This document shows, in pieces, positions 1,923 through 15,711 of a stretch of DNA of 20,165 bases (positions are counted from its first letter, which is position 1; each line of letters begins with the position of its first letter). This DNA comes from Candidatus Iainarchaeum sp. Lineage in GTDB: Archaea; Iainarchaeota; Iainarchaeia; JAGGVJ01. The stretch is from NCBI GenBank assembly GCA_021158055.1, contig JAGGVJ010000020.1, forward strand, positions 1 through 20,165, written 5' to 3'. The translations under genes were made by a program, and so were the position numbers. A model generated the notes under the pieces. That model was not told the origin of the DNA and ran no database searches. It worked only from the letters and a program-made list of their open reading frames with translations.

Positions 1923-3407
1923 TTGGAAAAAACAAAAACAAACGAAAGCGGATTTACAGAAACTGCGCAAAAGGCAGCTGACTGGATAGCTGAACGCGAC
2001 GACTTTCACGTAATCGGGCACTTTGATGCTGACGGCCTGACTTCAATCGGGATAATCGGGCAGACCTTGTTTCGTCTCGGGAAAAAGTTTGAGTCAAAAG
2101 CAATCAAGCAGCTTTACGCTGACGAGCTTGACGGGATTGAAAAACAAAACATAATTTTTCTTGACCTCGGCTCAGGGCAGATAAACACAATCAGGGAAAA
2201 ACTGAAGGGAAAAAACATCCTGATCCTTGACCACCACACCCCGGAAGAAACCGGCAGTGCGAAAACAGGCAACAGTGAATCCGGATCAAGCAAAGACGAA
2301 TCTGAATCAATCAAAAGCGAACCTGAATCAGAGATCCTTGAATTCAACCCGCACATGTTCGGCATTGACGGGGGGACAGAAATTTCCGGGGCCGGGATGT
2401 CTTTTTTTGTGGCAAGCCGGTTCGGGTTCAATGACTTGTCAGCGCTTGCAATAGTGGGCGCCGCAGGAGACATGCAGGACTACAGCCATGCAAGGCTTGT
2501 GGGAAAAAACCGCGAAATTCTTGACATTGCAAAAAAAGAGAAAGTGCTTGAATACAAAAACGACCTGCGTTTGTACGGCAGAATGAGCAGGCCGATTCTT
2601 CAAATGCTTGTGTATTCAACTGACCCCGTGCTTCCGAACCTCACTGCAGACGAAAAAAACAGTTTGTATTTTCTTGAAAAACTATGCATTCCCCTGAAAA
2701 CGCGCGACGGGGAATGGCGCACTTACTCCGGACTGGAACCAAGTGAAAAAAAGGCGCTTGTTTCAGCGCTCATCAACCATTGCATTGCAAACAACCTTTC
2801 AAGGTACAAAATGAAATTCCTGATAGGGGAAGTGTATGAACTGCTGCTTGAAGAACCCGGCTCTCCCTTGCGCGACGCAAAAGAATTCGCAACCATTTTG
2901 AACTCGTGCGGAAGGAACAACAAGCCCGACATTGGAATCCGCCTTTGCATGGGTGAACGCGACCAGGCATACAAAGAAGCGCTTTTGATGTGGGCAAAGC
3001 ACAAAACAGCACTTCGAACCGGAATCGAATTCATTCAGGCGACCGGGATTCAGGAAAAAAAAAACTATCTTCTGATTGACGGAAAAGACCGGATAAGCGA
3101 AAGCATAATCGGGATAATCGCGGGAATGCTTTACAGTTCAAACAACATCCCCCACAACAAGCCCATCTTTGCGCTTGCATGCGACGGAAGCGAAAAACTG
3201 AAAATTTCAGCCAGGGGAAACCGCGACCTTGTCTTCAAAGGACTTGACCTGAGCGCGGCCATGAAAACAGCGTGTGAAAAAGTAGACGGGGAAGGCGGGG
3301 GGCACAAAATAGCTGCCGGGGCAAAAATAAACGCTGCAAAAAAAGACGAGTTTTTCAAAGTAATAGACGAGGTTATGAAACAGCAGATGACTGCTCAAGG
3401 CAAGTGA
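1923..3407 (+). CDS. recJ: Archaeal RecJ/Cdc45-like DHH-family phosphoesterase (ssDNA exonuclease) with DHHA1 domain
   Basis: 494 aa with HFDADG, DLGSG, DHH, GAAGDMQ and C-terminal SARG...GGGHKIAAGA motifs. TTG start follows AAGTGA. Confidence 0.9.
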   Translation: MEKTKTNESGFTETAQKAADWIAERDDFHVIGHFDADGLTSIGIIGQTLFRLGKKFESKAIKQLYADELDGIEKQNIIFLDLGSGQINTIREKLKGKNILILDHHTPEETGSAKTGNSESGSSKDESESIKSEPESEILEFNPHMFGIDGGTEISGAGMSFFVASRFGFNDLSALAIVGAAGDMQDYSHARLVGKNREILDIAKKEKVLEYKNDLRLYGRMSRPILQMLVYSTDPVLPNLTADEKNSLYFLEKLCIPLKTRDGEWRTYSGLEPSEKKALVSALINHCIANNLSRYKMKFLIGEVYELLLEEPGSPLRDAKEFATILNSCGRNNKPDIGIRLCMGERDQAYKEALLMWAKHKTALRTGIEFIQATGIQEKKNYLLIDGKDRISESIIGIIAGMLYSSNNIPHNKPIFALACDGSEKLKISARGNRDLVFKGLDLSAAMKTACEKVDGEGGGHKIAAGAKINAAKKDEFFKVIDEVMKQQMTAQGK

Positions 3408-5049: not shown

Positions 5050-5865
5050 TCAATATCGAGTCCACTCAATTGAAAGCTTTTCAAGTGCCTGTTCAATGGT
5101 TTTTCTTTCTGTCGAGCGCAGGCCCTTGCTGTCAAAAGCCGCAAACTCTACTTTTTGCCTGGTTTTTTCAACTGCCTGTTTCACCATTTCAAAATCAACG
5201 TCTTGTGCAGCCCACTTTGGAACTATGTGGGAAAGCGCAAATTCTTCCTCCATTTCTTTGCGCGCAAGCAAAGGGCAGTAATGGGGGCCGCCAAAACCCA
5301 GCGCAACAGGGAACTTTGAAATGGCGTTTGATTCAAAGTCGTCAACGCTTTCGCTAATCACCCCTGCAACCATTGCCCCGCCGTCAATGCGTTTCCAGTC
5401 ATGTTCGGTGCTCCCGAGTTCAACAAAAACGCATGGTTTTTTCAGCGCGGTGGGGCCGTGGTGAGTGGCTTCAAGAGCCACTTCAAAATCTTTCTGGTCA
5501 AGCGAAAGCAGTTTTGAAAACGCATGCCTTTGAAAAAGAGCGTCTGAAAACGCAAGTTCTTTGTCGCGTCCCCCGAACTTTGCCTCCCCGAAATTTCCCG
5601 GCGCATGAACGCAAAAAGACGGCCTTCCTGATTCGCTTGCGTGCCTTGAGGCAAAAACAAAAAGGTCGGGATCAAAAAAATCATTCAAGTGGTCGGCGAA
5701 AACCTGGCTTTCCTTTAAAAACACCATCTTTGACTTGTTTCTTTGAAACACCTTGAAACCCTCAAAATACTCACCTGAGTCCTCAAACCCGTGGTTTTCA
5801 ATCAAATGGGCTGCTATGTTTTTTCCTGCCAGGTCAGTGTCTGAAACAACAATTACTGTGCTCAT
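5050..5865 (-). CDS. dtdA: D-aminoacyl-tRNA deacylase, archaeal DTD2/GEK1 type
   Basis: 271 aa with SRHAS, VHAPGNFGEAKFGG, EATHHGPT, FVELGS and GFGGPHY motifs. Confidence 0.93.
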   Translation of the reverse strand: MSTVIVVSDTDLAGKNIAAHLIENHGFEDSGEYFEGFKVFQRNKSKMVFLKESQVFADHLNDFFDPDLFVFASRHASESGRPSFCVHAPGNFGEAKFGGRDKELAFSDALFQRHAFSKLLSLDQKDFEVALEATHHGPTALKKPCVFVELGSTEHDWKRIDGGAMVAGVISESVDDFESNAISKFPVALGFGGPHYCPLLARKEMEEEFALSHIVPKWAAQDVDFEMVKQAVEKTRQKVEFAAFDSKGLRSTERKTIEQALEKLSIEWTRY

Positions 5866-5885
5866 AACAAAAATAAGGGTGACCG

Positions 5886-5917
5886 TAAATAAAAAAGCCG
5901 GGTTTTCTCAAGAACCC
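5886..5917 (-). promoter_or_regulatory. Short hairpin plus T-run (possible terminator of the upstream gene) overlapping a TATA-like box about 30 nt before the dtdA ATG
   Basis: Minus strand reads GGGTT-CTTGAGAA-AACCC GGC TTTTTTATTTA. Confidence 0.4.
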
Positions 5918-5934
5918 TTGTTTTTTTGAGTTCT

Positions 5935-7038
5935 TCAAAACCCCAGATAATTTGTGTAAAACACTGGTTCGCTGCCAACGCTCACTTCAAGTGATTTGCC
6001 CACAACACACTCGAAAAACCCCACATTCACTTTGTCGCCGTCAAACAAATCCACTGACTTTGCCCGAATCCACGGGTTTGCGTGCTTTCCGTCAACAACG
6101 AATTCAAAAGACGAAGCTTTAACTTGGCCAGAACCCGAAAACTCAAACAGGAAGCTTTCAGTTGAACTGCAACTGGTCGGAGCGTCAGTTAAAGACAACC
6201 TGCCATCAAGGGGTTTAACAGGTACTGAAACAACTGAATCATTCATAACATTAACTTGCGGAACAAAACTTTTTTCCTGGTGCAAAAATTCCTCTTCAAC
6301 AGGGAAATCGCCCGAATCAGAACCGAACACACCCGGTAAAGAAAACCCCTTACCAAAAACCCCCTCTGAAATACCTGAAAAATCAATGGCGGTTGCTGAA
6401 AAAAATAAAAATGCACTTAAAAGCACAATGACCACCGGAAACAAAACACCGCGTTTGTTTACTTTCCGCGCCGGATTGCCCGGGCCGCTTGAAGGATCAA
6501 GGGGGGTTTTTGATTTTGCTTTCCGGATAAAATCCTTTTTCCCGGATTTTTTCTGCCCCGCAACAACAGGCACTGCATACACTGGCCTGACAAGCAAAAC
6601 ACTGCCGGCAACAGCTTTCGCAAAAGAAGACATTGAAGACAACAGAAAAACCGCTGCTTTGTCTGAAAAAAACACTGTTTTTTTGAGGATGCCTGAAACA
6701 AAATAAACCGGAAAAAGCAAAAAGTTAACCAAAGAAGACCTTGACGGCAACAGGAATTTAAGTAAGCCAAGCCACTTCTTTGCTTTCAGCGTCTTTGCAT
6801 TTGCAGAATCGCGTTTTGTCCGCCCCGGCACAGACAAAGCAGCTTCTTTAATCAATTTTCTTCCAGTGTTAAACCTGGATCTTTGTGAATAAGAGTCCAT
6901 GTGCAACGACACTTCCTGAACATCTTCAATCGTAAAACCTGCTGAGTAAAGCAACTCCCGCGTGCCCGAGTCAGACTCGCCCTGTCCTCTGAGTTTTGCA
7001 ATCAAACCTGCAATTTCTTCTTTTTCTTTATCATTCAT
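5935..7038 (-). CDS. Hypothetical membrane protein
   Basis: Long ORF. ATG 7038 is preferred over the track's TTG 7074 because it follows AAGGTGAG. Basic N-terminal half with hydrophobic stretches, a clear TM helix (VLFPVVIVLLSAFLFFSA) and a beta-rich C-terminal domain. Confidence 0.7.
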   Translation of the reverse strand: MNDKEKEEIAGLIAKLRGQGESDSGTRELLYSAGFTIEDVQEVSLHMDSYSQRSRFNTGRKLIKEAALSVPGRTKRDSANAKTLKAKKWLGLLKFLLPSRSSLVNFLLFPVYFVSGILKKTVFFSDKAAVFLLSSMSSFAKAVAGSVLLVRPVYAVPVVAGQKKSGKKDFIRKAKSKTPLDPSSGPGNPARKVNKRGVLFPVVIVLLSAFLFFSATAIDFSGISEGVFGKGFSLPGVFGSDSGDFPVEEEFLHQEKSFVPQVNVMNDSVVSVPVKPLDGRLSLTDAPTSCSSTESFLFEFSGSGQVKASSFEFVVDGKHANPWIRAKSVDLFDGDKVNVGFFECVVGKSLEVSVGSEPVFYTNYLGF

Positions 7039-7131
7039 AATCTCACCTTCTGCAAGCCAAGGAATATAATCCAAAAATACTATGTAAAAGTCAAAACATC
7101 TGATAAGCGTACATTATACCCGCAACAATGA

Positions 7132-7139
7132 TATTTAAA
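7132..7139 (-). promoter_or_regulatory. Putative TATA box for the 5935-7038 gene
   Basis: Minus strand CAAAGA-TTTAAATA (purine-rich BRE-like bases followed by TATA). Confidence 0.4.
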
Positions 7140-7506
7140 TCTTTGCAAAAAAAATACATTAATCAGTGATGCCACAGATCCGGCAGCCGCCTGCCACATA
7201 AATGACTATCACTAACACAATTGCAAAATACACGCCAATCAGACCATTAAACTGCCAGATCGTTTGACTGTAAGACTGGGTCAGCTCGCCTAAAATTTGA
7301 AGAATATCCTAAGATAAACCTGGTATAAAAACTTTGAGTATGTGATCCAAAAAATTAAGCGGCATAAAAACCGGTTCTGAAAAAGTACAAAAAAGAAAAA
7401 CTTTTTATCCGAAACCACTTTATTCATATAGTGTTCTTTGTTCAAAATTGTTCAAAAAACCAGTAAATAAGCTGCAAAAAAATCCAAAGACAAACTGGTG
7501 CCGTAA

Positions 7507-8047: not shown

Positions 8048-8410
8048 ATGGCAAACAAATTTGCAGTCAAAACAAGTTTTCATCCCTACCGCATGGTCAT
8101 TAAAAGAAAAGAAAAAGTGGAAATGCGCGTGGAAATAACAAACACAAGCGAAGAAGAGAAAATGACTTCGCTCACAGTGGAAACCCCAAAAGGCCTCAGC
8201 CTCAACGAAACCTTAAACATTACCTCGCTTGAAAAAAGACTGGGAATCCTGAAACCAAAACAAACCGCGCGCATTTTTTTCAACATCCACCCGCGTTTCG
8301 ACACACCGCCCGGGCCGAAAGAAATCAGTTTAAGCCTCATAGAACACCACAAAAGCTACGACTTTGTATCTGACCAGTTTGACAGCAAAATAACCCTTAA
8401 AACAGAATAA
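8048..8410 (+). CDS. Hypothetical protein, single Ig-like beta-sandwich (CARDB/NEW3-like pattern), no signal peptide
   Basis: Strong AGGTGA RBS. VEMRVEITN...LTVETPKGL...LGILKPKQT...FNIHP...PPG pattern. Confidence 0.6.
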   Translation: MANKFAVKTSFHPYRMVIKRKEKVEMRVEITNTSEEEKMTSLTVETPKGLSLNETLNITSLEKRLGILKPKQTARIFFNIHPRFDTPPGPKEISLSLIEHHKSYDFVSDQFDSKITLKTE

Positions 8411-8488
8411 CTGCTGAAATCATATTTCTTTCAAACAGAATAACTGCTGAAATCATATTTCTTTCAAACAGAATGACTGCTGAAATCA
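8400..8488 (+). repeat. 33-bp tandem repeat, 2.7 copies, starting across the stop codon of the 8048-8410 gene
   Basis: AAACAGAATAACTGCTGAAATCATATTTCTTTC at 8400-8432 and 8433-8465 (identical), plus a partial copy at 8466-8488 with one substitution. Confidence 0.95.
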
Positions 8489-8558
8489 AACAAAAAACTG
8501 CGTTTTTGCCCACTTGGTTTCGGCAATCACCAACAAAACAAAAAAACCTTAACAAATC

Positions 8559-9235: not shown

Positions 9236-9769
9236 ATGAAAGAAATACGAATACACGGCCGCGGAGGCCAGGGCGCGGTAACCGCAGCCGAACTTCTTGC
9301 GGTTGCGGCATTTCTTGAAGGAAAATGGTGCCAGGCATTCCCCCACTTCGGAGTGGAACGAAGGGGAGCACCAGTAGCCGCATTCACAAGAATAGACAGC
9401 GAGCAAATCAGGTTGCACCAGCAGGTCTACAACCCCGACTACGTCATTGTCCTGGACGCAAGCCTCACCAAATCAGTCAATGTTGCAGAAGGGCTCAAGG
9501 AAAACGGGCTGATCATCATCAACTCTTCAAAAACCCCGAAACAACTCGGGCTTGAAAACAATACCGTCACAGTCGACGCAACAAAAATCGCGGTAAAAGA
9601 AATAGGCAAGCCCATAACAAACACCACCATGCTCGGGGCGTTTGCAGGCGCAACAAAAGAAATTGACGTGGAAAGCCTTGTTTCCGCAATAAAAGAACGG
9701 TTCCCTGAAAAACTCGCCAAGGCAAACGAAGCAGCGATAAGAGCCGCGTTCAGCGAGGTGAGCAAATGA
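9236..9769 (+). CDS. porC: Pyruvate/2-oxoacid:ferredoxin oxidoreductase gamma subunit (porC/porG)
   Basis: [31 protein letters not shown] motifs. Confidence 0.96.
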
Positions 9770-10029
9770 AAGTAAGCATTGCGGGAATAATCAGCGAACC
9801 CGGAAACTCAACCGAAAACAAGACCGGGGACTGGAGGACATTCAGACCCGTCGTGGACCTGAAAAAATGCAAAAAATGCGGAATATGCGCAAAATTCTGC
9901 CCTGACTCGGCCATAACCGTCTCAAAAGAAAAAGGCGCGGAAATTGACTACGATTACTGCAAAGGGTGCATGATATGCATGCACGAATGCCCGTTCAACG
10001 CAATAACACAGGAAGACGAGGAAAAATAA
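9766..10029 (+). CDS. porD: Pyruvate/2-oxoacid:ferredoxin oxidoreductase delta subunit (2x[4Fe-4S])
   Basis: [10 protein letters not shown]; [12 protein letters not shown] and [12 protein letters not shown]; ATGA overlap with porC and a GAGGTGA RBS. Confidence 0.96.
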
Positions 10030-10114
10030 CCCCTTGCGCGCAAAAAGCAGGCAGATAATACAGGGCAGAAAAGAACAGAAAAAAATTTCAGATTTAGAAA
10101 GGAGAAGTGGTTTT

Positions 10115-11284
10115 TTGAAAAAAATAATCAACGGTTCAAAAGCAGTCGCAGAAGCCGTTAAATTGTGCAGGCCAAAAGTGCTGCCAATGTACCCTGTCAC
10201 CCCCTCAACCCACATACCCGAAGCCCTCACCCAAATGAAGGCAGACGGAGAGCTTGAAGGGACACCCATAACCGTTGAAAGCGAATTCTCGGCTATTTCA
10301 GCATGCATCGGCGCAAGCGCAACCGGGGTCCGGACATTTACCGCTACGTCATCCCAGGGGCTTGCCCTCATGCACGAGGTTTTGCACACAACATCAGGGA
10401 TGCGCCTCCCGGTAGTGATCGCTGTTGCCAACAGGGCATTAAGCGCACCCATAAACATCTGGAACGACTGGCAGGACTCGATCTCGCAACGGGACACCGG
10501 GTGGATCCAGCTTTACTGCGAAAGCAACCAGGAAGCACTTGACACAATGATCCAGGCATACAAAATCGCAGAAGACAAACGCGTGCTTCTCCCGGTCATG
10601 GTCTGCATGGACGGGTTTTACATCACTCACGCAACAGAACCGGTTGACATACCTGAACAGGAAACAGTTGACTCTTTCCTGCCCGAGTACAAACCGGAAC
10701 ACGCCTACCTTGACACAGAAAAACCGATTACTCAGGGCCCGTTCAGCGGGCCTGACTCTTTCATCCAGATAAAATTCGAGCAAAGCACTGCAACAGACCG
10801 CTCGCTTGAAGTGATAAAAGAAGTCGCAAAAGAATTCGGGGAAAAATTCGGCAGGCACTACCCTGTTGTTGAAACCTACAAGACAAAAGACGCAGACAAA
10901 GTGATCCTGACAATGGGAACGCTTGCCGGAACCGCAAAAGACGCGGTTGACGAAATGCGGGAAGAAGGAAAAAAAGTCGGGCTTGTGAAACTCAAGGCAT
11001 TCAGGCCGCTTGCAAAAAAAGAACTGATTGAAGCTTTGTCAAACGCAAGCGAAGTAAGCGTCATTGAAAAAAACATTTCTTTGGGGACAAACTCTGGAGC
11101 GGTCTTCACAGAGCTCAGGAGCCTGCTTTACGGGACAGACCCCATCCCGAAAACCGTCAACTACATTGTCGGAATCGGGGGCAGGGATGTTCCGAAAATC
11201 GACCTGAAAGCCGCTGTAAAAAACACTTCGGGCTGCGGTGACGGGGAAATTTTCTGGGTCGGGGTTGAAGAGGTGGTCAGATGA
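10115..11284 (+). CDS. porA: Pyruvate/2-oxoacid:ferredoxin oxidoreductase alpha subunit
   Basis: YPVTPST, VESEFSA, TATSSQGL, ANRALSAPINI, DGFYITH motifs. TTG 10115 (after AGGAGAAGTGG) fits the family N-terminus better than the track's 10034. Confidence 0.95.
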   Translation: MKKIINGSKAVAEAVKLCRPKVLPMYPVTPSTHIPEALTQMKADGELEGTPITVESEFSAISACIGASATGVRTFTATSSQGLALMHEVLHTTSGMRLPVVIAVANRALSAPINIWNDWQDSISQRDTGWIQLYCESNQEALDTMIQAYKIAEDKRVLLPVMVCMDGFYITHATEPVDIPEQETVDSFLPEYKPEHAYLDTEKPITQGPFSGPDSFIQIKFEQSTATDRSLEVIKEVAKEFGEKFGRHYPVVETYKTKDADKVILTMGTLAGTAKDAVDEMREEGKKVGLVKLKAFRPLAKKELIEALSNASEVSVIEKNISLGTNSGAVFTELRSLLYGTDPIPKTVNYIVGIGGRDVPKIDLKAAVKNTSGCGDGEIFWVGVEEVVR

Positions 11285-12171
11285 AGGAATTTTACGCGCC
11301 GGGACACAGGACTTGCGCGGGATGCGGGCCGGCTGTCGCAGTCAGGCACATTTTGGACGCTTTCGGCAAAAACACGATAATAACCAATTCAACAGGGTGC
11401 ATTGAAGTCACGGGCTCGCCTTACCCGCAGACATCCTGGAGACTGCCCTACCTTCACGCAAACTTCGAGAACGCTCCAAGCATTGCCTGCGGCGTGGTTG
11501 AAGCCCTCAGGCAGCAGGGAAAAGAAGACGTCAAAGTATTGTCTCTGGGTGGAGACGGAGGAACCGTGGACATAGGCTTTGGTGCATTGAGCGGTGCGTT
11601 TGAAAGGCGGCACAACTTCACTTACATCTGCTACGACAACGAATCCTATGCAAACACAGGAGTTCAATGCTCGGGCTCAACTCCTTTTGCGGCGTGGAGC
11701 AGCACTTCCCCTGTCGGAAAAGTCAAGCAGGGAAAAGACCGCTGGAAAAAAAACACGGCGTTCATCATGGCCATGCACGGCGCAGACTACGTCGCCACCG
11801 CTTCCATTGCAGACCCTGACGACCTGAAAAAAAAGATCAAAAAAGGCCTTGAATACGACGGCTCGAAATACATTCACGTGCTCACCCCCTGCCCGATCGG
11901 CTGGAAATTTGACTCGCAAAAGACCATTGAATACGCGCGACTGGCAGTAAACAGCGGCATGTGGGCCTTGTTTGAAATAGACCAGGGTGAATTCCGAATA
12001 ACTGAAAAGCCAAAAGATTTGGGTAACATAGGGGAATACATAAAAGGACAGGGCAGGTTCAAACACGTCACTGCATCGCAGTTAAAGGAAATGCAGTCTC
12101 ACGTGAAAAAATCGTGGAAAGAGCTTGAAAAACTTGAAAAATCAGGACTCAACCTCAAGACAATGCTTTGA
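11281..12171 (+). CDS. porB: Pyruvate/2-oxoacid:ferredoxin oxidoreductase beta subunit (TPP-binding)
   Basis: GHRTCAGCG, TGC, GGDGG...YDNESYANTG, PCPIGW motifs; ATGA overlap with porA and a GAGGTGG RBS. Confidence 0.96.
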   Translation: MKEFYAPGHRTCAGCGPAVAVRHILDAFGKNTIITNSTGCIEVTGSPYPQTSWRLPYLHANFENAPSIACGVVEALRQQGKEDVKVLSLGGDGGTVDIGFGALSGAFERRHNFTYICYDNESYANTGVQCSGSTPFAAWSSTSPVGKVKQGKDRWKKNTAFIMAMHGADYVATASIADPDDLKKKIKKGLEYDGSKYIHVLTPCPIGWKFDSQKTIEYARLAVNSGMWALFEIDQGEFRITEKPKDLGNIGEYIKGQGRFKHVTASQLKEMQSHVKKSWKELEKLEKSGLNLKTML

Positions 12172-12243
12172 TTCGTTAACAATATCAAAACATTTAGAAG
12201 CACTGTCAACAAAAATACCAAAAACTCACCTCAATTATCTTAA

Positions 12244-12324
12244 TTACGAAAATCCGTAAGGATTTATGCCATTTTCTTACGGAAAAAGGTAAAGTTTATA
12301 TATTCACATCAACACTGAAGAGTT
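12244..12324 (+). promoter_or_regulatory. Promoter of ATPase gene 1: two imperfect palindromic boxes (33-bp period), TATA, TCACATCAAC, leaderless ATG
   Basis: TTACGAAAATCCGTAA at 12244 and TTACGGAAAAAGGTAA at 12277; TTTATATA at 12295; TCACATCAAC at 12304-12313; ATG at 12325. Confidence 0.7.
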
Positions 12325-13614
12325 ATGATTGAAAAAAACATTAAAAAAACCATACTTAAATATAAGGAATTAATCCCTGAAAACATTTTTCAGAGGGATT
12401 TAAAATTGCATGAAGTCAAATTTGACAAAGCTAATGTAATTGTCGGACCGAGGAGATCAGGAAAAACTTTTTTTTTATATAATCTGGCAAAAAAACAAAA
12501 AAATCCTGTATTGATTAATTTTGAGGATAATCTACTGGGTGAATTGAAAAGCTCTGATCTTAATAAAATATTGGATTGCTCTAAAGAACTATTTGAAAAA
12601 GAATCGTTATGTTTTTTTTTGGATGAAATACAAAATGTAAACGGTTGGGAAAAATTTGTCGTATCTTTGTTAAATGAACATTATCCTGTCTACATAACTG
12701 GTTCAAATTCAAAATTATTAAGCAGGGAAATAGCCACTTCATTAAGGGGAAAAGCATTGCCGTACCTGATGCTGCCATTATCTTTTAAGGAACATTTACG
12801 ATTCAAGGGCATTGTGCTCCAAAAAAATTATGAATATACTGATCAGGCATTTGTACTCAAACAACAGTTTAAAGACTATTTTAAATATGGCAGTTTTCCT
12901 GAGGTTTTGTTGTCTGATTCTTTATATCTAAAAAATAAGCTGTTGAATACTTATTTTGATTCAATTGTATACAAAGACCTGGTAGACCGGCTTAATCTAA
13001 AAAATATACGTCTGGTGGAAATAACCATAAAATATCTGCTTAATATTTATGGCAATATGTTTTCCATCTCTGTTTTTGAGAAATACCTAAAATCAAATAA
13101 GATCCCATATAGCCTGGAAGACATATACAATATCCTTAAAGCTTTACAGGATGTTTTCATGGTAAACTATGTCAAGGAATATTCAAAATCCTTCAAAAAA
13201 AGTGAAATATCCCGTTCTAAAGTTTATCTGTTTGATACAGGATACATTCATTTCTTATCCGGCGAACATGAGGATTACGGGCGAATCTTAGAAAATATTG
13301 TATTCATAGAATTATTCAGAAGACAAGACAATATTGAAAATAAAAATATTTTTTATTATAAATCAAAAAACAATAAAGAATGCGATTTTGTAATAACCAA
13401 TAGAGACAAGGTCTATGAAGCAATACAAGTCACATATGACTTTAATGAACTAAACCGTGAAAGAGAAATCAATGGCCTCTTAAGTGCAGTCCGTTTCTTC
13501 AATTTAAAAAAGGGATTAATCTTAACTTATGATCAGGACGATGAATTTCAGGCAAACGGTGTAGCGATAAAAGTGATGCCTGTTTGGAAATGGTCAATAA
13601 AATATACTTGTTAG
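12325..13614 (+). CDS. COG1373-type ATP-binding protein (AAA_14 + DUF4143; C-terminal restriction-endonuclease-like fold)
   Basis: Walker A GPRRSGKT, Walker B FFLDEIQN, TGSNS, GSFPE, KVYLFDTG, LENIVFIEL, ECDFVI...AIQV. Much more AT-rich than por (17/60 GC at 12481-12540 vs 38/60 at 11281-11340). Confidence 0.92.
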   Translation: MIEKNIKKTILKYKELIPENIFQRDLKLHEVKFDKANVIVGPRRSGKTFFLYNLAKKQKNPVLINFEDNLLGELKSSDLNKILDCSKELFEKESLCFFLDEIQNVNGWEKFVVSLLNEHYPVYITGSNSKLLSREIATSLRGKALPYLMLPLSFKEHLRFKGIVLQKNYEYTDQAFVLKQQFKDYFKYGSFPEVLLSDSLYLKNKLLNTYFDSIVYKDLVDRLNLKNIRLVEITIKYLLNIYGNMFSISVFEKYLKSNKIPYSLEDIYNILKALQDVFMVNYVKEYSKSFKKSEISRSKVYLFDTGYIHFLSGEHEDYGRILENIVFIELFRRQDNIENKNIFYYKSKNNKECDFVITNRDKVYEAIQVTYDFNELNREREINGLLSAVRFFNLKKGLILTYDQDDEFQANGVAIKVMPVWKWSIKYTC

Positions 13615-13735
13615 ATCTTTATCATAAAGACCTTCAATAGTCCTTGTTTTTGCATTTTTTTAATACGGTTGTATGTTTTGCGCCATACTCCACATCACTT
13701 CGTTCCTTGCCACGCTGCGCTTTCCTTTTATTCAC

Positions 13736-13798
13736 CTGGAACGACTGGCAGGACTCGATTTCGCAACGGGGGGAATCAATATAAAAACAATGCTTTGA
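13736..13798 (+). pseudogene. Fused relic of an internal porA fragment and a porB 3' end
   Basis: 13736-13770 matches 10459-10493 at 34/35 nt. 13772-13798 matches 12145-12171 at 22/27 nt (GINIKTML* vs GLNLKTML*). Confidence 0.85.
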
Positions 13799-13960
13799 CT
13801 CAACCCTAAAACACCGCTTACCAAAGTGAAAAAGCAAACGAACCGGGTAAAAATCCTGCTGAAGAAATGGAATTTGATGACTTTATTGACGGGATGAAAA
13901 AATGACAGGCGTAATTGCAGAAAACCAAGGCAAACATGCCGCCTAAATGCATATATGAAT

Positions 13961-14041
13961 TTATCGTTTATAATCGACAGAAATATCAAAACTTATCGTT
14001 TATAATCGACAGAAACATCAAAACTTATCGTTTATAATCGA
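13961..14041. repeat. 32-bp tandem repeat, 2.5 copies, with a near-palindromic core; homologous to the promoter repeat of ATPase gene 2
   Basis: TTATCGTTTATAATCGACAGAAAYATCAAAAC at 13961 and 13993, partial at 14025. Confidence 0.93.
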
Positions 14042-14122
14042 TGAACTGGGAAAATTTATCTATCATATCAGAAGGGGTTTTCAATACCTTTTCGTTGACG
14101 GCGCAGCCTTTCTCATCAAATT

Positions 14123-14202
14123 GCCTGTCAGCTTCCCCTGACGGGTGGGCCTTGAAACCCATTGCTTCGTGGTTTCGTATGGGTGCTGACACACACCCGT
14201 AC
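14123..14202 (+). other. Three adjacent stem-loops (candidate structured RNA or terminator cluster)
   Basis: Stems 14123-14131/14138-14146, 14154-14159/14171-14176 and 14177-14185/14194-14202. The non-Watson-Crick pairs within these stems are G-U on the plus strand. Confidence 0.45.
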
Positions 14203-14217
14203 AGCTTATGTGGGTGA

Positions 14218-15489
14218 TTATTCAAGCGCCCATAACCAAATGGGTTTCAATTCAATTGTCTTGCCATTGATTCTGATTATGTCTTCCTGATCCCCTGTGA
14301 GTATGAGTCCCGAGTCAAGCCCGTAAGCATCCATTGCATTCAGGAGCCCTTGAAACTCCCGTTTTTCATTTTTATGTTCTAATTCTTTTGTCACCTGTAT
14401 CGCAGAAATTATCGTGTTCTTGTCTTTTATCACAAAATCACATTCATTTTTTTCTAAATGATAGTATGTTTCTTTTCCGCGTCTGCAAAGTTCTATAAAA
14501 ACCATATTTTCAAGAAGCCTGCCTGAATTTTTTGAAAAACTGAAACCCACCGCCGTTGCAAGACCGGTATCTATGCAATATATCTTTTTTGAGCCCAACA
14601 TCTGCTTCTTTAATGAATATGAATATCTGCTCAACCCAAAAAACATGAAACTATTCTCAAAATAATCAAGATAATTTTTAATACTGCTTATGCTTTTTAT
14701 TCCGCTTATGTCTTTTAATGTATTATATGAATGAATCTTGCTTATATTGGATGCCAGAAAATTGCTGATTTTTTTCATTTCATTGACTTTTGTTATGGAA
14801 TGTCTTGCAATTATGTCCCTGTAAAATATGTCATTGTAATAATCTTTAAGCAACTCTTTATTTTTTTCTTTCAGGACTTGCGGGAATCCCCCCAAGGCGA
14901 TATACTCATTGAACCTGCGTTTAATTTTTGTTTTTTTTATTGTTGTAAGTTTTGAGATTTCAAATGTTTCATTGTTTAGTTTAAGATACTCCTTAAAGCT
15001 GAATGGGAACAATTCAAGAACCACATTTCTTCCCGTAAGTGATGTCGCAATTTCAGAACTGAGCAGGGTTGCATTAGATCCGGTAACAAATATCTTTATT
15101 CCTTTTTCATACATCCTGTTCAGGAATTTTTCCCAGCCAAAAGCATTTTGTATCTCATCAAAGAAAAAGACAATCTTATTTTGTTCGGGGTTGAATTCCT
15201 CAAGGAATATTGAAAAGATGTTATTGAAATCATCTGCGCTTAAATCTATGAATCGTTCATCATCAAAATTAAGGTATAATATATTATTTTTATCTGTTTT
15301 TTTAAGGATTTCATCTTTTATGATATACATTAATGATGATTTTCCGCACCGCCTTATTCCCGTGATGACAACAATCTGTTGCGTGTTTATGTATTTCTTA
15401 AGGCCTATATCTCTCTGCATCAATTCTTTTTTCTCAAAAAAAGATTCTCTTTGATCAAGCATTATTTCTTTTAGCCTGCTTTTTAACAT
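14218..15489 (-). CDS. COG1373-type ATP-binding protein (AAA_14 + DUF4143), second paralogue
   Basis: GIRRCGKS, FFFDEIQN, TGSNA, GGFP, KKIYCIDTG, LENMVFIEL, ECDFVI...AIQV. ATG 15489 is preferred because the track's ATG 15513 lies inside the TATA box, whereas 15489 is 29 nt downstream of it. Confidence 0.92.
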   Translation of the reverse strand: MLKSRLKEIMLDQRESFFEKKELMQRDIGLKKYINTQQIVVITGIRRCGKSSLMYIIKDEILKKTDKNNILYLNFDDERFIDLSADDFNNIFSIFLEEFNPEQNKIVFFFDEIQNAFGWEKFLNRMYEKGIKIFVTGSNATLLSSEIATSLTGRNVVLELFPFSFKEYLKLNNETFEISKLTTIKKTKIKRRFNEYIALGGFPQVLKEKNKELLKDYYNDIFYRDIIARHSITKVNEMKKISNFLASNISKIHSYNTLKDISGIKSISSIKNYLDYFENSFMFFGLSRYSYSLKKQMLGSKKIYCIDTGLATAVGFSFSKNSGRLLENMVFIELCRRGKETYYHLEKNECDFVIKDKNTIISAIQVTKELEHKNEKREFQGLLNAMDAYGLDSGLILTGDQEDIIRINGKTIELKPIWLWALE

Positions 15490-15571
15490 AATTATATCTG
15501 GTTGATGTGACATATAAACCTTTCGTTTGAAAAGAACGTTTTATATCAAAACCTTTCGTTTGAAAAGAACG
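15490..15571 (-). promoter_or_regulatory. Promoter of ATPase gene 2: perfect 23-bp direct repeat (33-bp period), TATA, TCACATCAAC
   Basis: AAACCTTTCGTTTGAAAAGAACG (plus strand) at 15516-15538 and 15549-15571, with core CGTT-N7-AACG. Minus-strand TTTATATG starts at 15518; TCACATCAAC at 15510-15501. Confidence 0.75.
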
Positions 15572-15667
15572 AAAACCTGATTTTTTTTCTCCGGAACATC
15601 AATATCTGAACCGCATCAATATCCGGACAGGTCTCAAGCCACACCATGCCCTCACGCACCGTAGAAA

Positions 15668-15711
15668 CAAAAAAAGACCAAACCCTGCTTTTGTCCCGCA
15701 AAAGCAAGGTT
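15668..15711 (-). terminator. Hairpin plus T-run terminator of the giant surface-protein gene
   Basis: Minus strand AACCTTGCTTTTG-CGGGA-CAAAAGCAGGGTT (13-bp stem, one G-U) followed by TGGTCTTTTTTT, 35 nt after the stop codon. Confidence 0.7.

What the first reader, a model, noticed from the sequence alone, without database searches (positions are those of the whole stretch)
13736..13770. 35-nt near-perfect copy of internal porA sequence, 3.3 kb from its source and fused to the porB-end copy
Seen: CTGGAACGACTGGCAGGACTCGATTTCGCAACGGG vs 10459-10493, differing only by a synonymous ATC/ATT. It joins through a G-run directly to the porB 3' copy, skipping the about 1.65 kb that separates these sequences in the operon. 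Simple reading: the remnant of a second porAB allele collapsed by microhomology deletion. Speculative reading: a spacer-sized captured fragment. A leftward transcript from the orphan promoter at about 13959 would be antisense to both porA and the porB stop region, i.e. a candidate regulatory or guide RNA encoded between two ATPase-nuclease genes.
Basis: partly seen in the sequence, partly recalled or inferred. Interest (0 to 1): 0.7.

Follow-up and report, generated by a model that had tools for sequence, protein, structure and literature searches.

The report
Recombination scar beside a defence island
The short copy of a metabolic gene is real, but it is most likely an ordinary leftover from a second gene copy that was pushed aside when defence genes were inserted and then mostly deleted, not a guide RNA.

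Summary
In detail: 13736-13770 matches porA 10459-10493 at 34/35 and abuts a 22/27 copy of the porB end, skipping 1,651 nt. Contigs from two samples cross both junctions, so mis-assembly is unlikely. The scrap lies in a 3.5-kb, 33%-GC island of two COG1373 (PADLOC PDC-S01) genes that a 94%-identical relative lacks. The same 350-nt spacer holds relE and abrB relics cut by similar deletions. The por differences look allelic (4 of 5 at third codon positions), and an IleRS gene end is duplicated the same way elsewhere in the genome. Best reading (0.7): the displaced, collapsed remnant of a second porAB allele, left by homology-anchored additive insertion. The guide or antisense reading lacks support: no cas1, array, Argonaute or Rfam match, no RNA structure, and 0 of 25 COG1373 loci in relatives carry such scraps. 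The orphan promoter resembles that of the neighbouring COG1373 gene. No RNA data exist. A second 31-34-nt host-gene scrap (C4/C25) stays unexplained. The scan's index showed no earlier report of this. Ordinary scar; low interest.

The parts
9236..12171 (+). Resident por operon (gamma 9236-9769, delta 9766-10029, alpha to 11284, beta 11281-12171), the only por set found in the genome; GC 0.50
   Evidence: Pfam; NCBIfam (PorA_Arch and PRK08534 over cut-off); single tblastn locus; GC
10459..10493 (+). Source of the scrap inside porA (WNDWQDSISQR motif)
12145..12171 (+). Resident porB 3' end (GLNLKTML*; GINLKTML* in P0002 and P0004)
12172..15657 (.). Accessory island, GC 0.33; absent from a cold-seep relative whose contig joins 12171 to 15669
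   Evidence: table 5 (X4, one contig, 25 letters on the short side)
12325..13614 (+). COG1373-type ATPase-nuclease gene 1 (AAA_14 + DUF4143; PADLOC PDC-S01); its last codons overlap the relE relic
13595..13672 (+). Relic: 3' end and post-stop flank of a ParE/RelE-family gene, 86% to the intact paralogue C15:11443-11520
13673..13735 (.). 63 nt of unassigned sequence; no significant match to por or to the C15 module
   Evidence: 247/1000 and 805/1000 shuffles reach the score
13736..13770 (+). The 35-nt porA scrap (34/35)
   Evidence: crossed by contigs in X1 and X2
13772..13798 (+). Copy of the porB 3' end with its stop codon (22/27 to resident, 23/27 to the X2/X4 allele)
13799..13814 (+). Post-stop flank resembling the island-free relative's porB flank (9 of 16 letters; resident flank 5 of 16); suggestive only
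   Evidence: by-eye count against table 5c; binomial p 0.026
13829..13904 (+). Relic of an AbrB/MazE antitoxin gene: two collinear blocks joined by a 63-nt deletion at a shared CTGAA
   Evidence: 0/1000 shuffles
13949..14048 (-). Orphan promoter/operator array (three 32-nt units with a palindrome) like the upstream region of gene 2; its gene is inferred lost
   Evidence: 0/1000 shuffles against 15511-15600; direction inferred by analogy
14218..15513 (-). COG1373-type ATPase-nuclease gene 2 (PDC-S01)
15658..15711 (.). Native porB downstream flank and hairpin terminator, where the relative's sequence resumes
   Evidence: (joint to 15669)

Best explanation
The scrap is a recombination scar with no function of its own. 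Shown: a 3.5-kb accessory island sits between the porB stop and its terminator, and inside it lie, in operon order and orientation, 35 nt of porA, the last 27 nt of porB and a few letters of porB-like flank. Inferred step 1: DNA from a related strain, carrying por genes followed by a COG1373 gene and a toxin-antitoxin pair, entered by homologous recombination in the por operon and joined illegitimately at its far end inside the old porA. This pushed the old porA 3' part, old porB and an older island (gene 2) downstream. Inferred step 2: the redundant 1.7-kb copy lost 1,651 nt between two G runs, leaving its two ends. The same erosion cut the toxin-antitoxin genes and removed the gene of the orphan promoter.
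For: Island absent in relative X4 (94% identical, 68 differences in 1,129 nt), which joins porB to the terminator. Pieces are collinear with the operon. Against the X2/X4 allele the copy has 5 differences in 62 nt, 4 at third codon positions (p 0.045), with the stop kept, and it has the Ile of P0002 and P0004. Its post-stop flank is closer to X4's (9/16) than the resident flank is (5/16). Two more skip-junctions lie within 350 nt: gene 1 to relE tail, and abrB to abrB at a 5-nt repeat. In-genome twin: the IleRS end plus flank is duplicated (46/52; stop TGA to TAA) beyond a lower-GC gene, the top downstream outlier of 877 genes, 34/42 against next best 28. RadA is present. The same architecture was proposed for Vibrio T6SS and Rhs arrays (PMC5361080, passages).
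Against: No intermediate with a longer por piece was found; no genome of the same family was among those searched. The porB-end copy alone is within genome background. All five changes are also GC-to-AT, as neutral decay would give; against the resident allele the third-position excess is not significant (4 of 6, p 0.10). The X4 joint rests on one contig with 25 letters on the short side. A third, older porB-end copy at the right edge was not significant (669/2000 and 549/2000; 554/1000). The C4/C25 scrap has no collinear flanks, so this model does not cover it well. No general excess of displaced gene ends in G000 or in 583 genes of relatives.
Confidence: 0.7

Rival explanations
1. Two events: the left half of the island integrated as a circle at the porB end, duplicating 27 nt like an attachment site, and the porA piece was patched in separately by short-patch illegitimate recombination (SPDIR-like) from nearby single-stranded DNA.
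For: Size fits the 3-100 bp of SPDIR (10.1101/2023.11.22.568220). A second isolated scrap (31/31 exact, 33/34 extended) lies about 12.2 kb from its source in direct orientation with no collinear flanks. The porA piece is closer to resident (1/35) than the porB piece (5/27), Fisher p 0.08. A COG1373 block in L039 is bracketed by an exact 27-nt repeat.
Against: It needs a chance landing exactly beside the porB copy, in operon order. No integrase in the island; the genome's one tyrosine recombinase is on C21. Unrelated porA genes match the 35-mer at up to 33/35, so high identity does not show a younger age. With the X2 allele Fisher p is 0.16.
Confidence: 0.2
2. The scrap is a functional captured fragment, transcribed leftward from the orphan promoter as an antisense RNA to por mRNA or as a guide for the flanking ATPase-nucleases.
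For: Spacer-like length; a promoter-like array points toward it; a second scrap of similar size sits near COG1373 genes in this genome; the function of PDC-S01 is unvalidated (PMC12988326, passages).
Against: 0 of 25 COG1373-bearing loci and 0 of 15 other loci of relatives hold a coding-to-noncoding short copy within 20 kb, while the window is detected as a control. Of the other 11 COG1373 gene or gene-end entries in G000, none has such a scrap within 1.2 kb. No repeats flank it and the two scraps share no flank. No cas1, array or Piwi in a 95%-complete genome. No Rfam match; 187 of 200 shuffles fold as well. A six-U tract at 13897-13902 lies between promoter and scrap. The spacer has no real match in 200 other genomes of the phylum (one 35-nt hit at E 5e-4).
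Confidence: 0.04
3. Assembly artefact.
For: The genome is a 45-contig metagenome assembly; no single contig spans the whole locus; X1 may be the source sample and X2 is from the same study.
Against: Separately assembled contigs of two samples cross both junctions at normal depth (17.6 vs 16.6; 10.3 vs 14.4) with one differing letter each, and the copy carries its own variants.
Confidence: 0.02

Closest known systems
Homology-facilitated illegitimate recombination with sequential displacement (Vibrio cholerae T6SS effector-immunity arrays; Rhs orphan 3' ends; PMC5361080, passages read)
   Same: A conserved upstream gene acts as anchor, a new module is added behind it, and the old 3' end and older modules are shifted downstream as relics.
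   Different: Here the anchor is a housekeeping operon in a small archaeon, the cargo is PDC-S01 and toxin-antitoxin genes, and the displaced piece is eroded to 62 nt. DNA uptake was not tested.
[quoted passage not shown]
   Same: Short patch (3-100 bp) copied from inside the genome.
   Different: The patch here is followed by a second collinear por piece; the replaced sequence is unknown, so microhomologies cannot be checked. It fits the C4/C25 scrap better.
Attachment-site duplication of integrative elements at gene 3' ends (recalled, no call)
   Same: A direct repeat of a gene's last codons brackets inserted DNA and the gene stays intact.
   Different: No integrase in the island, the repeat is only 22/27, and an internal porA piece is attached.
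CRISPR spacer or Argonaute guide
   Same: Length of about 35 nt; next to predicted nucleases.
   Different: No repeats, array, cas1 or Piwi; self-derived; not recurrent at related loci.
PADLOC PDC-S01 / COG1373 / DUF4143 ATPase-nucleases (PMC12988326 and PMC3424549, passages read)
   Same: Both flanking genes are members; common single-gene defence candidates.
   Different: No associated RNA or captured DNA is described in the passages read, and none was found at 25 related loci.

Membership tests
CRISPR spacer | Length of about 30-40 nt | tested here: met
   35 nt
CRISPR spacer | Flanked by two copies of a repeat, or part of an array | tested here: not met
   No flanking repeat; 0 array candidates in 45 contigs
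CRISPR spacer | cas1 in the genome | tested here: not met
   Best hit 17.7 bits, below cut-off 22.3; genome 95% complete
Argonaute guide | Piwi-domain protein in the genome | tested here: not met
   0 candidates
Regulatory antisense or small RNA | Known family or stable structure | tested here: not met
   No Rfam match near the locus at E<=1; z +1.30
Regulatory antisense or small RNA | A transcript exists | not testable with these tools
   Only DNA contigs could be laid
Regulatory antisense or small RNA | Recurs at related loci | tested here: not met
   0 of 25 COG1373 loci; relatives are only of the same class, so the test is coarse
Homology-anchored additive insertion (HFIR-type displacement) | Foreign insert behind a conserved anchor, absent in a relative | tested here: met
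   GC 0.33 vs 0.50; X4 joint 12171-15669, one contig
Homology-anchored additive insertion (HFIR-type displacement) | Old 3' end displaced downstream, differing like an allele | tested here: inconclusive
   Collinear copy; 4 of 5 changes at third positions (p 0.045), flank 9/16 (p 0.026); both weak
Homology-anchored additive insertion (HFIR-type displacement) | Microhomology at the illegitimate joint | tested here: inconclusive
   2 of 3 letters shared left of the scrap; G run at the internal joint; donor sequence unknown
Homology-anchored additive insertion (HFIR-type displacement) | Recombinase and DNA uptake | tested here: inconclusive
   RadA present; uptake not tested
SPDIR patch | 3-100 bp, donor inside the genome | tested here: met
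SPDIR patch | Microhomologies to the replaced sequence at both ends | not testable with these tools
Site-specific integrative element | Integrase within the element | tested here: not met
   One tyrosine recombinase, on contig C21; none in the window
PDC-S01 / COG1373 (flanking genes) | AAA_14 plus DUF4143; PADLOC model | tested here: met
   (E 1e-95 and 1e-119)

The most novel reading that the evidence does not exclude
This archaeon stores spacer-sized pieces of nearby host genes (porA here, a DUF7343 gene at C4/C25) at the edges of PDC-S01 islands, because the ATPase-nucleases cut DNA and the breaks are patched from local templates, and the leftward promoter turns the porA/porB piece into an antisense or guide RNA that lets the island throttle pyruvate oxidation. 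That would be an RNA-linked function for a very common, unvalidated defence candidate.
Probability: 0.04. Interest if true: 0.8.

Novelty: new member of a known kind. Interest (0 to 1): 0.15.

Why it matters
As a scar it matters little. It is a small example that a reduced archaeon can add defence cassettes behind housekeeping genes without an integrase, and that short repeats erode what is displaced. It also warns that spacer-sized host-gene copies near nucleases arise without CRISPR. If the antisense or guide reading were true, it would give PDC-S01, called the fourth most common defence candidate in PMC12988326, a testable RNA partner.

Tried and rejected
No RNA holder was listed, so expression is untested. 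A degenerate porB-end pattern gave 4 chance matches in metagenome contigs (no por or window homology) and 0 in viral contigs. The first 24 letters of the scrap gave 0 viral matches and 5 genome records: 4 are porA genes at 49-55% protein identity, 1 has no por hit. The spacer has no phage match. A protein search with the porB C-terminus found only its own cluster; no protein ending GINIKTML was seen among its 4 members. A third porB-end copy at 15630-15669 was not significant. A relE 5' relic at 13901-13948 was not significant (113/1000). The idea that the 35-mer is unusually conserved in the class failed (rank 526 of 1132 windows in 15 relatives), yet GC-rich unrelated porA genes match up to 33/35. 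REP-like motifs in 13673-13735 do not form a family (motif variants recalled). The sigma-70 scan was at background (18 vs 15.7) and does not model archaeal promoters. X3 has low-depth cover over the spacer bins, but the listed rows do not show whether it holds the scrap. Literature: 'COG1373' 8 papers, 'DUF4143'+'ATPase' 4, 'PDC-S01' 7 (6 listed), 'DPANN'+'genomic island'+'microhomology' 1; no listing or passage seen describes host-gene scraps at such loci. Supplements were not opened. Look-ups of earlier findings near the locus, by sequence and by words returned nothing.

Full report
Setting. The window is contig C8 of a 1.15-Mb, 45-contig genome, 95% complete, held by hydrothermal-vent runs. 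The label DPANN comes from earlier scan notes; I did not test it beyond seeing por matches of 49-57% in small-archaeon records. The locus reads porGDAB (9236-12171), a COG1373 gene (+, 12325-13614), a 603-nt spacer, a second COG1373 gene (-, 14218-15513) and a large surface-protein gene. Both COG1373 genes match PADLOC PDC-S01; the genome has 12 DUF4143 matches.

Observation. 13736-13770 equals porA 10459-10493 at 34/35, the difference being ATC/ATT; E 3.5e-10 in the genome. It is followed by a G run and a 22/27 copy of the porB end with its stop. The skip is 1,651 nt and the pieces are out of frame. The porB copy beats 2000 of 2000 local shuffles but is not exceptional genome-wide; its weight comes from its position. 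Contigs of X1 (possible source) and X2 (another sample, same study) cross both junctions with one differing letter each. The feature is real DNA.

The island. 12172-15657 has GC 0.33 against 0.50 in por. In cold-seep run X4 a contig 94% identical over porAB continues from the porB stop through 16 other letters into 15669, skipping 3,497 nt. This is one contig with 25 letters on the short side, a kind of joint the tool warns about, but the long side is a clear orthologue (a 96%-identical PorB, P0004, comes from a Logan contig of the same length). Run X3 holds pieces of both COG1373 genes at 94-96%. So the island was inserted between porB and its terminator, and it varies among relatives.

The spacer is a graveyard. 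13595-13672 is the 3' end of a ParE/RelE-family gene, 86% to an intact COG1373-abrB-relE module on C15, fused to the last codons of gene 1. 13829-13904 is an abrB relic in two blocks joined by a 63-nt deletion at a shared CTGAA (0/1000 shuffles). 13949-14048 is a three-unit palindrome array like the upstream region of gene 2 (0/1000); other COG1373 genes here also have such arrays. I infer that it is the promoter of a lost third gene. The por scrap is thus one of three skip-junctions within 350 nt, all in the same orientation.

The copy looks like another allele. X2 and X4 have A at 12148, as the copy does, and P0002 and P0004 end GINLKTML. Against that allele the 62 copied letters differ at 5 places, 4 at third codon positions (p 0.045); against the resident allele 4 of 6 (p 0.10). 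All five are also GC-to-AT, so neutral decay is not excluded. After the stop the copy matches X4's flank at 9 of 16 letters and the resident flank matches at 5 of 16 (by eye; p 0.026). The near-identity of the porA piece does not date it: unrelated porA genes match the 35-mer at up to 33/35, and the two pieces do not differ significantly in divergence (Fisher p 0.08-0.16).

Other cases in the genome. On C17 the last six codons of IleRS plus flank recur at 46/52 beyond a lower-GC phosphodiesterase gene, with the stop changed TGA to TAA; it is the top downstream outlier of 877 genes. On C4 a non-coding 31/31 (33/34) copy of an internal piece of a DUF7343 gene lies about 12.2 kb from its source in direct orientation, once the 127-nt C4/C25 overlap is used. 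It has no collinear flanks and shares no flank with the window's scrap. It looks more like a short patch and remains unexplained.

Test of the guide idea. None holds an isolated coding-to-noncoding copy of 22-75 nt apart from a T-rich low-complexity pair in L065; the window was found as control. The test sees only sources within the same piece. No displaced housekeeping end stood out among 583 genes. G000 has no cas1 over cut-off, no array and no Piwi. The putative RNA has no Rfam match, folds worse than most shuffles and would have to pass a six-U tract. Transcription could not be tested.

Mechanism. Most likely (0.7), DNA from a relative carrying por, a COG1373 gene and a toxin-antitoxin pair recombined into the por operon and joined illegitimately inside the old porA, pushing the old porA 3' part, porB and an older island downstream. 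A deletion between G runs then removed all but the ends. The island, the collinear pieces and the deletions are shown; the order of events and the donor are inferred. The main rival (0.2) is an attachment-like duplication of the porB end plus a separate short patch. Function as antisense or guide RNA is 0.04, mis-assembly 0.02.

Known kinds. The architecture matches the displacement model for Vibrio T6SS and Rhs arrays (PMC5361080, passages). SPDIR gives patches of this size (10.1101/2023.11.22.568220, part 1 of 3). Partial duplication during transformation is known (PMC3784515, abstract and outline). DUF4143 is a PD-(D/E)XK family of unknown function (PMC3424549, one passage), and most PDC systems await validation (PMC12988326, passages). 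My searches showed no report of host-gene scraps at such loci; other papers were seen as listings only, and supplements were not opened. Verdict: a real but ordinary scar, a new member of a known kind, interest 0.15.

Noticed in passing
L036 (G000:C4) 216-249 and L037 (G000:C25:12090-12123): Non-coding 33/34 (31/31 exact) copy of an internal piece of a DUF7343 membrane-protein gene, in direct orientation about 12.2 kb from its source, between a KaiC-like operon and the RPA gene; no collinear flanks.
   Followed up: partly
L088 (G000:C17) 1738-1789 and 3074-3125: The last six codons of IleRS plus flank are duplicated at 46/52, stop TGA to TAA, on the far side of a lower-GC phosphodiesterase gene.
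   Followed up: partly
window 13949-14048 and 15511-15570; upstream of COG1373 genes on C1, C12, C35 and in L058: COG1373 genes are often preceded by tandem palindromic repeats, each gene with its own sequence, which suggests self-regulation by operator arrays.
   Followed up: partly
L058 (G018:C29) 5300-7500: In another family a COG1373 gene also lies directly downstream of porB (convergent), with no por scrap.
   Followed up: partly
L039 8448-8474 and 10944-10970: An exact 27-nt non-coding direct repeat brackets a 2.5-kb block that includes a COG1373 gene.
   Followed up: partly
window 14043 and 14218-15513: Contigs of X1, X2 and X3 all have one more A behind 14043 than the window, a likely error in this assembly. 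The exact protein of gene 2 is not in the collection under the start I used.
   Followed up: no
window 8397-8495: Three tandem 33-nt repeats in the spacer upstream of a lipoprotein gene.
   Followed up: no
window 10029-10115: The porD-porA spacer differs in X4 (51 nt replaced by 13); porA probably starts at 10115 (P0007), not 10034.
   Followed up: no
L001 (G000:C15) 11716-13122: IscB-like RRXRR-HNH gene next to the intact abrB-relE module; its end sequence recurs near several islands in the genome.
   Followed up: no
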